NCBI GenBank assembly: GCA_964016885.1
Contig: OZ024740.1
Coordinates: forward strand, 392,832,001 to 392,896,000
Direction: 5' to 3'
DNA: 64,000 nt
Origin: Eledone cirrhosa
Lineage: Eukaryota
Shown: piece by piece, positions 13,093 through 64,000 of the stretch
Numbering within the stretch: the first letter of the stretch is position 1
How the letters are laid out: each line of letters opens with the position of its first letter
Notes under the pieces: model-generated
Told to the model about the DNA's origin: nothing
The model's input: only the letters and a program-made list of their open reading frames with translations
The model's database searches: none
Program-made: the position numbers and the translations under genes

Positions 13093-14292
13093 TGTGGTAA
13101 CACAACAGTTAGTTCACCATACCGAGAACAATTGTTTCACTTTAGCGGATCCTCAGCTCGGACTGGTCATGGTTATACGGAACAGGAAGAACAACCGTAT
13201 GAACGCGCATGCGCAGAAACGGTCGCTTCACCCAAGCGATACAATGCCACAGGCGAAAGATGAAAGGGAGATAACTGCGAAAGTCCGAAAAGTAGTTTGA
13301 GTTGATAAGAAAATTAGAATGATGTTATTCACTCCGGAGCCTTGTAGTTATGTAAGAGGTGTTTCCAGACATGTGAACAACGTGTGAAGATTTCATTTCT
13401 TGAATTTAGGCAATCGTTATTGCGTAATCTCCTTGGAATATTTATCCGTTCAGCAATACACAGTCCACAAGACGGTCTGCCCCTTGCGTATAGCTTGGAC
13501 TTAGTAATGGCTTTCCATTGAATGGAGTAGTCTATACTTGAGTCCTTGAGGGACCATACGTGGCTCGCGAGTTTCGTGGATGATCGTTTGTCCGGGTACC
13601 TAAAGGTCGACTGATGGTTCAGGAAGCGTTCCTTAAATCGGCCCTCCGCCATACCCACATGGGATTTCACCTCCTGTGGTTCATTTGGTCGGCTGGAAGT
13701 GACCACAGCTTCATAAACCACAGCGGCTGTGTTGCATTGCTGTTGAAGGGGACAAGCTTCAGGCTTTCGGCAAGAGTACCTTAGTGGGGTGCTGATCTTA
13801 GGGCTGTTGGTGATGTGGGCTTTCATATTCTTAGCGCATAAGTACCCTAGTTTTACTCTGTGTTTGTTAAAGATGGAGCGGTATTTGTGACCCATGGGAA
13901 TGTGTCTATCTAAGAGGGCTAAAAATGTTTTTCCTACATTAGTTTTAACGTTGAGTGACAATGGAGGAGAGAACCAGATAGTTTGTCTATTGTTGCGATT
14001 TCCTTTCTTATTGCTGTTGTTGTTAGTGGGAGAGTAAGTAATTGATTGCGAGAAGCCGCTGTTAGTTAATACCGTGTTATAGTAGGGTGCCGCTCTGTCA
14101 AAGATAGCCTTATTAGAGGAGAAGTTAGAGATTCTAGTACTGATATTATTTACGAAGTTTCTACAAACAGTAGGAGGGTGGCATGAGTCCTTGTGAATGT
14201 AATTAAGTTGCCACCCTCCTACTGTTTTTAGAAACTTCGTAAATAATACCAGTACTAGAATCTCTAACCTCTCCTCTAATAAGGCTATCTTT
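13093..14292 (-). mobile_element. 5'-truncated Penelope-like element (RT C-terminus + GIY-YIG + tail) with inverted 5' duplication
   Basis: YIHKDSCHPP...IWFSPPLSLNVKTNVGK...CRKPEACPLQQQC..AVVYEA..HVGMAEGRFKERFLNH..CGLCIAE..LNSRNE..CSH (stop 13329). 14207-14292 is the reverse complement of 14100-14183. Confidence 0.9.
13122..13161 (-). ncRNA. Minimal type I hammerhead ribozyme in the Penelope 3' tail
   Basis: ccgag CTGAGGA tccgctaaagt GAAA caattg TT ctcgg, about 170 nt downstream of the GIY-YIG stop on the same strand. Confidence 0.85.
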
Positions 14293-16698
14293 AGGTAGGT
14301 GTAAGACTATCAGTTGCTGGAAAATCGGTGTTATATGTATTTCAAGTACATTGGAAATAGTGCAAAATATCAAATTCTTAAATATTCGCAATCACCAGGA
14401 TCCTCAATGGGGAACGAAGACTTTAACCTAATATTGAGAACTTGGATATGGAACTAGTCTTTATTCAAAGTAATAAATTGTGTAAGGGAAATGAAATAGC
14501 TACGACCAGTGATCGAAACCGAATTGCAATCTCTTCATTATCAGCTTATCTTTGGTCATGGCATTTGTCACATCGAGCTAAGTATCACAAATTATTTTAA
14601 CATTTATTTAAAATGTCTAATATGACATTCTATTATTGCATCAACTAAACGGAAGCCTTAATAAGTAAAAACAAAACCATAAGCAAATAAAATTATCTTG
14701 TTTTTAGTTTCATGAAAGCCACTTGAGAATACTAACTCACACAATCTGGGAACCAAAACATCCTACACTTTCCTTAATGCAGCAACAACAAAAACTAAGC
14801 ACTAATATAACACACATATAAATGTGTATCCTTTCCCTATCTCTTTCATTCACTCACTTTCCCTCTATCACACGCACACACGGAGTACTCAACCGTACAT
14901 ACGCGCTCAACGACAATAACAAAACAGAAATATAACAAGTAACATGCTGATAGATAAATACGCTCACACATAAGTTGGTGTAAATTGTGTAAAGAAATAT
15001 CTTTAACGCATGAAGTCTTTCAAATGTTAAATGATGAAGCATTTCAAGAAGTTTACTTGGACTCTTCTGAAAGTCAGCTTAAAAAATACTAGTAGCGATA
15101 CTAACATTGATCAGAGAATCAATGGAACTTCTTCCCAGCAACAGCTATTATCAGTGTCTACAACACTAAATACACACTAAGTACGAGAGAAAGATAAAAA
15201 GAGAGAGTGTGTGTGTGAGAGAAAGAGGGGCGAGAGAGAGATAAAGAGAGGATGAGAAAGAGAGAGAGAGAATCCAGAATTCAAATGAGTTGGTGGCAAC
15301 CTGTGTAAATATAAACTATTCCGATTATAAGATAGCTGAGATGAGGGAAAATTCCAACGGTTAATATAAAGAGAATAACTTGTTCAGAAAGTATGTCTGA
15401 ATTTTGTATCAAAAAATGACATTTAAAGAAAAAAAAATAAATAAAAGGATCTTTTCGTTTTCTATTCTTTTTTGTGAGGGCTTCTCCAATGTCTTCCTCA
15501 AATTGATAGGCTGACAAGGTGAATGAAGGAGCGATGGACTAAAAGTCAAAGCAGAATATGAATACACACACACACAGAAACACTGACAGAGCATGCACAC
15601 GATAGCTTTGCACAGAAAGAGAAGAAAATAATGTGAATAGAATTTACTAAAATATTATGATATATACTTAAGGATTTCTTTCCAGAGAGCTTTAACTGAA
15701 GCATTTATTAAAAGCTTTCCGAGTTTCATTTAAATTGGGAATAGACGCAGGTATGGCTTAGTAGTTAAGAAACTTGCATCAATCTTGGATTCCTGAATTC
15801 GGTCCTACTGCGTGACGCCGTGGACAAATGTCTTTACCATAGCCTCGAGTCGACCCAAGATTTGTGAATGAAATTAGGTTGACGAAAACGGTATGGAAGC
15901 CCGTTGGATGGATGAACTGTACTTGTAACTCAAAGGTCCAACATTGTTACACGCTGGCATGACTTGGGAGTTACGTTATGGGTACAGCTATCTGGAATAC
16001 TGAACCACTTACATGTTCGTTCTTGAGTTGATCGAACAACTGTGAGCTCATCGTCAAATCCGACGGAAGATCCATCAGCTAGTTAATGGATGGGTGACTT
16101 CATTAGACAGTATTGCCATGCAATAAATTATACTTTATTAATATGGTTAATACCAATAAATCATTACCCAACACACACGCATTTTTTATGCGTGTGTGAT
16201 AAGCGGTGTCAATTGGTTTCACTTATCTGAAACCAGTTACCTTTTCCCATAATTCGCCATCGGAGAGGTGGCAAGCCAGTACAGTTGTTAGAACGCCAGA
16301 CAGAATATTATGCCGTATTCGTTCTGGTTCTCTGTGCCCTGATTTTAGAATGCCACTAAAATGAACATTGCCTTTTGTCTTTGCCTTCTGTCTTTGCCGA
16401 ATCGATAAATATTAAATCACCAATCCAGTACCGAGGTTCTTTCTTCTTTTCTCTATCTCTTTGTATGTTTCCCATTTTCTCTTTTTAGAAGAAATCGGTT
16501 GTGGTCTGAGTTTAAGCGTAATGAGCTCTAACAAGCTTAAGGTGCCGAAGATATGCAGTAAGTCACAATAATGCCCTCATGACTCCATCAATTGCTAATG
16601 GCATAAGTCAAGTCAAGACAAGGCAAAAATTAGCTTTTCTTTCTTTATGGGAATGTTTTTAACGTTTGACAAGAAAATTCTGCAATCATTTTTATTTC

Positions 16699-17446: not shown

Positions 17447-17497
17447 AGCTTCCTGAAGATTTCATCTGAATGAAACAGTACTAGTCCTGTAGAAGCT
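17447..17497 (+). ncRNA. Type I hammerhead ribozyme within fold-back tail 17318-17510
   Basis: agcttc CTGAAGA tttc atct gaat GAAA cag tactagtc ctg TA gaagct. Homologue at 53737. Confidence 0.8.
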
Positions 17498-17505
17498 CCT
17501 TCTAT

Positions 17506-53873: not shown

Positions 53874-56204
53874 GGAAAAAATGAAACGATATTTCATTTC
53901 CCACTCTTAGTACGGCTGTTACTTAAATATAAGTATGTACACGTACATACATATATGTATACCGACGTACAGTAGTATGTATATATATATATACATACAT
54001 GCACACATATATATATGCACGTATGGATTCACCGAACATTTATTATAATGCTCGGTGTGTTTGTAAACAAACATCCCGTATTAAGCCGTAGTGTCTAGCA
54101 ACCACCGTTGCTCGTTTGTTCAACACTGACAAAGGAACGCTGTACTAGTTTCAAGCTTGTTAGCTATCGTCAGCAACGTATACCTTCCTGCCAGATTGTT
54201 GAACGTATATACTTACCTTATGCATATTAACGGCTGAGTAGCCCAATATGCATATCGAGTGGGTTAATCGGCCGGGTGCACCGAAAACGATAAACGGAAA
54301 AAATGAAACGATATTTCATTTCCCACTCTTAGTACGGCTGTTACTTAAATATAAGTATGTACACGTACATACATATATGTATACCGACGTACAGTAGTAT
54401 GTATATATATATATACATACATGCACACATATATATATGCACGTATGGATTCACCGAACATTTATTATAATGCTCGGTGTGTTTGTAAACAAACATCCCG
54501 TATTAAGCCGTAGTGTCTAGCAACCACCGTTGCTCGTTTGTTCAACACTGACAAAGGAACGCTGTACTAGTTTCAAGCTTGTTAGCTATCGTCAGCAACG
54601 TATACCTTCCTGCCAGATTGTTGAACGTATATACTTACCTTATGCATATTAACGGCTGAGTAGCCCAATATGCATATCGAGTGGGTTAATCGGCCGGGTG
54701 CACCGAAAACGATAAACGGAAAAAATGAAACGATATTTCATTTCCCACTCTTAGTACGGCTGTTACTTAAATATAAGTATGTACACGTACATACATATAT
54801 GTATACCGACGTACAGTAGTATGTATATATATATATACATACATGCACACATATATATATGCACGTATGGATTCACCGAACATTTATTATAATGCTCGGT
54901 GTGTTTGTAAACAAACATCCCGTATTAAGCCGTAGTGTCTAGCAACCACCGTTGCTCGTTTGTTCAACACTGACAAAGGAACGCTGTACTAGTTTCAAGC
55001 TTGTTAGCTATCGTCAGCAACGTATACCTTCCTGCCAGATTGTTGAACGTATATACTTACCTTATGCATATTAACGGCTGAGTAGCCCAATATGCATATC
55101 GAGTGGGTTAATCGGCCGGGTGCACCGAAAACGATAAACGGAAAAAATGAAACGATATTTCATTTCCCACTCTTAGTACGGCTGTTACTTAAATATAAGT
55201 ATGTACACGTACATACATATATGTATACCGACGTACAGTAGTATGTATATATATATATACATACATGCACACATATATATATGCACGTATGGATTCACCG
55301 AACATTTATTATAATGCTCGGTGTGTTTGTAAACAAACATCCCGTATTAAGCCGTAGTGTCTAGCAACCACCGTTGCTCGTTTGTTCAACACTGACAAAG
55401 GAACGCTGTACTAGTTTCAAGCTTGTTAGCTATCGTCAGCAACGTATACCTTCCTGCCAGATTGTTGAACGTATATACTTACCTTATGCATATTAACGGC
55501 TGAGTAGCCCAATATGCATATCGAGTGGGTTAATCGGCCGGGTGCACCGAAAACGATAAACGGAAAAAATGAAACGATATTTCATTTCCCACTCTTAGTA
55601 CGGCTGTTACTTAAATATAAGTATGTACACGTACATACATATATGTATACCGACGTACAGTAGTATGTATATATATATATACATACATGCACACATATAT
55701 ATATGCACGTATGGATTCACCGAACATTTATTATAATGCTCGGTGTGTTTGTAAACAAACATCCCGTATTAAGCCGTAGTGTCTAGCAACCACCGTTGCT
55801 CGTTTGTTCAACACTGACAAAGGAACGCTGTACTAGTTTCAAGCTTGTTAGCTATCGTCAGCAACGTATACCTTCCTGCCAGATTGTTGAACGTATATAC
55901 TTACCTTATGCATATTAACGGCTGAGTAGCCCAATATGCATATCGAGTGGGTTAATCGGCCGGGTGCACCGAAAACGATAAACGGAAAAAATGAAACGAT
56001 ATTTCATTTCCCACTCTTAGTACGGCTGTTACTTAAATATAAGTATGTACACGTACATACATATATGTATACCGACGTACAGTAGTATGTATATATATAT
56101 ATACATACATGCACACATATATATATGCACGTATGGATTCACCGAACATTTATTATAATGCTCGGTGTGTTTGTAAACAAACATCCCGTATTAAGCCGTA
56201 GTGT
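53869..56204 (-). mobile_element. Retrozyme-like tandem array, inverted arm: 5.5 x 422 bp with 5 hammerheads
   Basis: Unit starts at 53871, 54293, 54715, 55137, 55559 and 55981. Hammerhead at 54137-54179 and every 422 bp after. Confidence 0.9.
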
Positions 56205-56207
56205 ATT

Positions 56208-64000
<7,793 letters not shown>

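What the first reader, a model, noticed from the sequence alone, without database searches (positions are those of the whole stretch)
56180..56230. The array is head-to-head, with both 3' ends anchored in TA repeats and a microhomology junction inside the ribozyme
Seen: the left arm is inverted. At the junction, gtattaagc repeats 56188-56196 and overlaps (aagc) the start of the right arm in hammerhead stem II. Both outer ends merge into TA tracts at TA-like positions of the unit (ccgttta|ta at 53869; cttatat|at at 63226). Known: Penelope insertions often carry an inverted 5' segment and favour AT-rich targets. Inference: two cDNAs were primed from opposite sides of one TA-tract break on multimeric or circular RNA, suggesting rolling-circle reverse transcription.
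Basis: partly seen in the sequence, partly recalled or inferred. Interest (0 to 1): 0.72.

Follow-up and report, generated by a model that had tools for sequence, protein, structure and literature searches.

The report
Back-to-back ribozyme array, Penelope-type insertion
This is one of thousands of young insertions of a 424-base repeat carrying a predicted self-cutting RNA; its two halves sit back to back in a TA tract and end at two fixed sites, one each, which suggests that a Penelope-type transposon enzyme likely copied small, probably circular, RNAs from both sides of one DNA cut.

Summary
The geometry is real. An inverted arm (53868-56204, 5.5 units) meets a direct arm (56208-63226, 16.6 units) through a 3-nt insert, and both 3' ends lie in (TA)n.

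It is the family norm. Of 84 unique head-to-head insertions, 64 end at the two fixed unit sites, 277 (A) or 219 (B, 58 nt shorter): 63 pair A with B, none A with A. This is the known Penelope-like 'tail on one end only'; a purified Penelope-like enzyme extends both strands from two such start sites (PMC11167929).

The junction 'inside the ribozyme' is chance (20 of 140 ends, 15.8 expected), and TA-likeness does not explain the ends.

Rolling-circle copying has indirect support: rare variants fill every unit of both arms at five young loci, and nothing piles up at the cleavage site. Here, however, the two arms differ in haplotype. That argues against fold-back and for two templates.

No read spans the junction, and no partner enzyme is proven. 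The scan found the same layout earlier for other families in this genome. Verdict: a new member of a known kind, with useful mechanistic statistics.

The parts
53803..53870 (.). Left (TA)n target tract; its last 3 nt are shared with the element end
53868..56204 (-). Inverted arm: 5.5 units of 422 nt, 3' end at site A (unit 277, tail included), 5' end at unit 49; all units C at unit 398 and short internal TA run
53868..53925 (-). 58-nt 'tail' (unit 220-277), present at this end only; contains a predicted hairpin
56188..56196 (+). Donor copy of the 9-nt word repeated across the junction
56203..56211 (+). Head-to-head junction: 2 nt shared with the left arm, 3-nt probably templated insert (56205-56207), 4 nt shared with the right arm
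56208..63226 (+). Direct arm: 16.6 units of about 424 nt, 5' end at unit 409 (first ribozyme copy lacks its core), 3' end at site B (unit 219, no tail)
56612..56655 (+). First complete predicted minimal type I hammerhead (core CUGANGA and GAAA, 4-bp stem II, one-pair stem III with palindromic tetraloop); predicted cut between 56648 and 56649
   Evidence: read from the sequence; no Rfam hammerhead match
57892..57892 (+). First of 13 consecutive units with T at unit 398; the three inner units and the whole left arm have C
63222..64000 (.). Right (TA)n-rich target tract, about 1.3 kb in all, running past the window end; first 5 nt shared with the element end
53610..53803 (.). Separate miniature head-to-head insertion of another hammerhead family (63-nt perfect inverted repeat, about 67-nt tail on the left end only); the big array sits in its right-hand TA flank

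Best explanation
This is a young head-to-head insertion of a non-coding 424-nt hammerhead repeat (a retrozyme) in a TA tract, likely made when a Penelope-like enzyme cut both DNA strands and reverse-transcribed the RNA from each cut end, probably round a circle. Shown: the geometry; two fixed 3' ends 58 nt apart, used one per arm; 5' ends scattered over the unit; joints with microhomology or short inserts; multimeric arms that usually share rare variants. Inferred steps: (1) arrays are transcribed, self-cleave and circularise; (2) a dimeric RT/GIY-YIG complex binds the tail region and makes staggered nicks in (TA)n about 8-14 nt apart; (3) one 3' end starts at site A and the other at site B, each through a 3-5 nt TAT overlap; (4) each copies the RNA for a variable number of rounds; (5) the two antisense cDNA ends are joined by microhomology-mediated end joining, here with a slipped 3-nt insert. 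At this locus the two arms were probably copied from different RNA molecules, with one further template switch in the right arm.
For: A+B pairing 63 of 64 (0 A+A, 1 B+B; p 4e-18 against 50%), and 30 of 30 in loci not chosen by their ends. Genome-wide exact counts: 3,842 A ends, 1,543 B ends, 2,133 ribozyme words. A young coding Penelope-like family in the same genome ends in (TA)n at two sites 60 nt apart, one of each in 5 of 5 head-to-head pairs with both ends in view. In vitro, PAc cleaves and extends both strands and starts at two internal sites that bracket the tail (PMC11167929). No pile-up of 5' ends at the cleavage site (2 of 140, 3.0 expected); 177 of 180 unit joins there are exact. 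Rare substitutions fill all units of both arms at 5 of 15 young multi-unit loci; for two of them no equally long source array exists elsewhere in the assembly. Modal TA-run length matches between arms at 12 of 14. No blunt joints among 13 insert-free young junctions, against 55% expected. Interrupted target duplications of 14, 12 and 8 nt at 3 of 34 loci examined.
Against: No partner enzyme is identified: the coding family shares no significant sequence with the unit. In vitro, hammerhead cleavage was dispensable and unprocessed RNA was the main substrate for PAc (PMC11167929), which favours linear templates. Older long arrays show higher-order patterns (L113, L136), so arrays do expand after insertion, and that could also homogenise units. 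This locus and L047 do not fit a single circle. Missing source arrays may simply be absent from one assembly, and assembly polishing can hide unit differences. 71 of 157 arm calls were single arms; only 4 of 44 checked had a detectable short partner. At a few loci an interruption next to one end is not duplicated at the other. Three of the five fixed-variant loci were fetched because they carried that variant.
Confidence: 0.65

Rival explanations
1. Same two-sided priming, but on linear uncleaved multimeric transcripts; long homogeneous arms come from long source arrays and from satellite-like expansion after insertion, with no rolling circle.
For: Hammerhead cleavage is not needed in vitro (PMC11167929). 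Higher-order repeat patterns in older arrays and arrays up to 58 units. The 13-unit T block here could be one CpG-type change followed by expansion. Li et al. 2026 favour local amplification by unequal crossover.
Against: Variants fixed in both inverted arms (16+7 and 3+5 units) with no equally long source elsewhere. Young arms are rarely mosaic. The 22 units here carry no other substitution, leaving little time for expansion.
Confidence: 0.22
2. Fold-back or self-priming: one cDNA is made and the inverted arm is copied from it, as proposed for Penelope palindromic junctions.
For: Proposed in PMC3846280. About 11 of the listed junctions have both 5' ends at nearly the same unit position or overlap through unit hairpins. 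It is geometrically possible for 51 of 64 insertions and would explain shared variants.
Against: Impossible in either direction for 13 of 64. B is the longer arm in 28 of 64. At this locus the left arm (C, short TA run, 6 of 6) matches neither the inner nor the outer right arm (long TA run in 16 of 17; T from the fourth unit).
Confidence: 0.08
3. Assembly artefact or two independent insertions that happen to abut.
For: No contig from the laid runs was shown to bridge this junction (inconclusive). A 9.4-kb inverted array is hard to assemble.
Against: The joint is asymmetric and has its own insert. It obeys the A+B rule seen at 62 other loci, many under 1.5 kb. No TA tract or host DNA lies between the arms. 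The only plus-then-minus adjacency found is separated by (TA)n. The nearest assembly gap is at 40805-41004.
Confidence: 0.05

Closest known systems
Animal non-LTR retrozymes (Cervera and de la Pena 2020, PMC7229834, passages read; Li, Clavereau and Pollet, bioRxiv 10.64898/2026.07.22.740005, parts 1-3 of 5 read)
   Same: Non-coding tandem unit of a few hundred nt, low GC, minimal type I hammerhead in every unit, strongly folded RNA (z -7.7), many dispersed copies; circles shown for coral, mussel and axolotl families.
   Different: The passages read describe tandem arrays only; 'inverted', 'orientation' and 'rolling' have 0 occurrences in PMC7229834. Here most insertions are two-armed with fixed paired ends. 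Cleavage and circles are untested for this family.
EN+ Penelope-like elements: inverted pLTR and tail on one end (PMC3846280 and PMC8557442, passages read; PMC11167929, parts 1-2 of 4 read)
   Same: Inverted 5'-truncated copy next to the 5' end, head-to-head, tail present at one end, (TA)n or AT-rich targets, two internal start sites, both strands extended.
   Different: No ORF; the tail is 58 nt rather than 30-40; both arms are multimers of up to 20 units; the one-of-each rule is quantified here, whereas in vitro no strand difference in start site was seen.
L1 twin priming with 5' inversion (recalled, not read here)
   Same: Two primers from one target site give a head-to-head inversion joined by microhomology or short templated inserts.
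   Different: In L1 the second primer anneals anywhere inside one RNA and the arms do not overlap in sequence; here both arms start at fixed sites 58 nt apart and copy the same unit repeatedly.

Membership tests
Non-LTR retrozyme | Type I hammerhead motif in each tandem unit | tested here: met
   Core and stems read from the sequence in every full unit. Rfam gave no hammerhead match at gathering or E 1, so this rests on motif inspection.
Non-LTR retrozyme | Short non-coding low-GC unit in dimers to multimers, dispersed in the genome | tested here: met
   422-426 nt, about 38% GC, 2,133 exact ribozyme words on many contigs; no ORF of 250 aa or more listed within the array.
Non-LTR retrozyme | Self-cleavage and circular RNA in cells | not testable with these tools
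   Needs RNA experiments; only indirect genomic signs were obtained.
Penelope-like insertion anatomy | Inverted 5'-truncated copy adjacent to the 5' end (head-to-head) | tested here: met
   84 unique head-to-head insertions in 123 regions; 37 in the 48 regions not chosen by their ends.
Penelope-like insertion anatomy | Two fixed 3' ends bracketing a tail present on one end | tested here: met
   63 of 64 A+B; the tail is 58 nt, longer than the 30-40 nt in print.
Penelope-like insertion anatomy | AT-rich or (TA)n target with target duplication | tested here: inconclusive
   The TA target is met. A duplication is readable at only 3 of 34 loci and hidden in pure TA here.
Autonomous Penelope-like element | ORF with RT and GIY-YIG endonuclease | tested here: not met
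   The unit is non-coding; it works like a PLE passenger but is not an autonomous PLE.
pLTR derivative of a specific PLE | Sequence similarity to the pLTR of a coding PLE in the same genome | tested here: inconclusive
   Only one coding family was compared (5 loci) and gave no significant match; other PLE families exist in the loci.

The most novel reading that the evidence does not exclude
Penelope-type retrotransposition uses an obligately asymmetric dimer that nicks both strands of (TA)n and fires two reverse transcriptases, one from each end of the RNA tail. On a small ribozyme-made circle both run as rolling circles, writing two-armed satellite arrays of up to 20 or more units in one event. 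This locus, with different haplotypes in its arms, would show that the asymmetry lies in the protein-DNA complex, which can hold two different circles and switch between them.
Probability: 0.4. Interest if true: 0.75.

Novelty: new member of a known kind. Interest (0 to 1): 0.5.

Why it matters
How Penelope-like elements make their tandem and inverted structures is stated as unresolved in PMC8557442 and PMC11167929, and circular RNA as the retrozyme transposition intermediate is proposed but, in what I read, not shown from insertions. This family gives thousands of young, countable insertions. The strict one-long, one-short pairing, the random 5' joints and the variant sharing between arms make precise predictions for the existing in vitro assay, and they argue against the published self-priming idea as the general route. 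The single junction flagged is ordinary within its family; its added value is that its arms come from different haplotypes.

Tried and rejected
Reads: no RNA holder was listed. Laying Logan contigs of four runs on the junction showed no bridging piece at 95% or 100% likeness; contigs of such a high-copy repeat are fragmented, the tool filters records, and the sample may be another individual, so this is no evidence either way.

Rfam: no hammerhead match; the AT-hairpin matches to microRNA families lie far below gathering score and were rejected.

Ribozyme-directed junction: rejected. Linear cleaved monomers with template jumps: disfavoured, since there is no pile-up at the cut site and joins are exact. 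TA microhomology as the sole determinant of ends: rejected.

Partner search: one coding family tested, no sequence link.

Junction statistics against a fixed reference were confounded by substitutions (31 of 49 called as insertions), so I repeated them on 25 young loci. Five of 12 insertion calls there (38-54 nt) are anchoring artefacts, three of which resolves as 2-7 nt microhomologies.

L048 was dropped from counts because it overlaps the window, and two tandem duplicates in L051 were counted once. The target duplication at this locus cannot be read in pure TA. A sequence look-up among earlier findings gave only an unrelated 4-of-122-word match.

Full report
Observation. The window holds an inverted array at 53868-56204 (5.5 x 422 nt) and a direct array at 56208-63226 (16.6 x 424 nt), 5' ends facing, 3' ends in (TA)n. 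The 9-mer at 56188-56196 recurs at 56203-56211 and spans a 3-nt insert. Four of 64 possible inserts would give such a word, so templating is likely but not proven by this site alone. The only N gap is at 40805-41004.

The unit. Numbered from the predicted cut, the unit carries a minimal type I hammerhead at its end: the conserved core, a 4-bp stem II, and a one-pair stem III closed by a palindromic tetraloop like that described for an axolotl motif that cleaves better as a dimer (PMC7229834, passages). Rfam does not detect it, so this is by inspection. The RNA folds far better than shuffles (z -7.7). Exact ribozyme words occur 2,133 times in the 3.0-Gb genome. It fits the animal non-LTR retrozymes, which a 2026 preprint links to Penelope-like elements.

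Survey of other loci. I examined 123 regions (130 fetched stretches, some contiguous ones merged, one overlapping the window dropped, plus the window). They gave 86 head-to-head calls and 71 single-arm calls, the latter including fragments of diverged sister families. Of 84 unique head-to-head insertions, 63 had one end at unit 277 (A) and one at about 219 (B), 1 was B+B, none A+A, 17 had at least one non-canonical end and 3 ran into an edge or gap. In the 48 regions chosen without regard to ends, 30 of 30 canonical cases were A+B. Four of 44 single arms checked had a very short inverted partner, always of the complementary type. Genome-wide there are 3,842 exact A ends and 1,543 exact B ends in TA. 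The unit's longer internal TA runs are not the usual ends, so the ends are fixed start sites and not mere TA microhomology.

Junctions. The 140 5' ends of 70 junctions are spread evenly over the unit (chi-square p 0.26); 20 fall in the ribozyme against 15.8 expected, and 2 within 5 nt of the cut against 3.0. The ribozyme position of this junction is therefore chance. Among 25 young junctions, 13 had 1-5 nt microhomology, none was blunt (55% expected), 7 had 1-11 nt inserts and 5 were anchoring artefacts. This pattern resembles microhomology-mediated end joining with templated inserts (recalled). Interrupted duplications of 14, 12 and 8 nt flank three of 34 insertions, most others being pure TA, which suggests a staggered cut.

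Template. In 15 young multi-unit insertions, substitutions were mostly singletons or fixed in all units of both arms (5 loci, three of them fetched for that variant). One variant occurs 19 times genome-wide, 8 of them in one 3+5 insertion and the rest as singles. Another occurs 34 times, 23 in one 16+7 insertion whose next-longest run elsewhere is 5. The T variant occurs 81 times and fills both arms at three loci. Modal TA-run length agrees between arms at 12 of 14 loci, and 177 of 180 joins at the cut site are exact. This suggests a monomer bottleneck with no free 5' end, that is a circle. Against it, older arrays show higher-order repeats, so expansion after insertion happens, and the PAc enzyme did not need ribozyme cleavage in vitro.

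This locus is an exception. The left arm is C with a short TA run in all units; the right arm has a long TA run in 16 of 17, with C in the three inner units and T in the 13 outer ones. It cannot be a fold-back copy, nor the product of one monomer circle, unless both arms were remodelled after insertion without gaining any other substitution. Two templates plus one switch is the simpler reading. Fold-back is also impossible for 13 of 64 insertions on geometry alone.

Enzyme. A coding family with a C-x4-C-x2-C linker before a GIY-YIG-like motif (Neptune-like by the description in PMC8557442; no tree built; Pfam RVT_1 only weak) has at least 150 copies at 97-100% protein identity. Its copies end in (TA)n at two sites 60 nt apart, one of each in 5 of 5 head-to-head pairs seen. 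It shares no significant sequence with the unit, so it is a model for the mechanism and only a candidate partner.

Comparison with print. Inverted 5'-truncated copies, a tail on one end and microsatellite targets are described for PLEs (PMC8557442, PMC3846280; passages). Two-strand cleavage and extension from two start sites is shown in vitro (PMC11167929; parts 1-2 of 4). Seven searches returned no paper that counts the one-of-each pairing or describes two-armed multimeric retrozyme insertions; the library lacks most subscription papers, and I did not read supplements (Fig. S2 of PMC11167929 and the preprint's tables may bear on this). Earlier notes of this scan describe the same layout for 310, 316, 318, 467 and 530 nt families in this genome. 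I had reached my reading before that look-up, and the notes are not independent evidence. One of them calls the genome octopus-type, which I did not test.

Verdict. It is a new retrozyme family with standard Penelope-type insertion anatomy. The family statistics and this two-haplotype locus make an open mechanism testable. Interest 0.5.

Noticed in passing
window 53610-53803: Miniature head-to-head insertion of another hammerhead family, with a tail of about 67 nt on one end only; a longer copy with the same two ends is in L086 (97-98% identical).
   Followed up: partly
window 47915-48324: Decayed relative of the 424-nt unit (75-80% identity), also minus then plus.
   Followed up: no
window 17453-17500: Isolated hammerhead-like core resembling the miniature family.
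   Followed up: no
window 50783-53239 (minus) and 13332-14306 (minus): An 819-aa LINE-type RT frame (Pfam RVT_1, E 4e-30) and a 325-aa frame without a Pfam match.
   Followed up: no
L043 5790-8390; L076 7900-10000: Young head-to-head arrays of an unrelated 310-nt hammerhead unit, the family of earlier scan notes.
   Followed up: partly
L075, L156, L158, L160: Sister family at 81-89% identity with the same hammerhead and an expanded internal TA run; a more distant sister (L075, L131) changes both strands of stem II while keeping the pairing.
   Followed up: partly
L113, L136, L145: Older long arrays (10-58 units); L113 and L136 show alternating or higher-order variant patterns, and the T-variant sites in L145 repeat at 13.5-kb spacing, suggesting satellite-like growth after insertion.
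   Followed up: partly
L051 412-7067: Two whole head-to-head insertions, each present twice in tandem with identical junctions.
   Followed up: no
L119 4784-5489: The single B+B exception to the pairing rule.
   Followed up: partly
L161-L190: Very abundant young coding Penelope-like family with a 60-nt tail; a 12-of-13 nt match exists between the start of its tail and the retrozyme tail hairpin, not at equivalent positions and possibly chance.
   Followed up: partly
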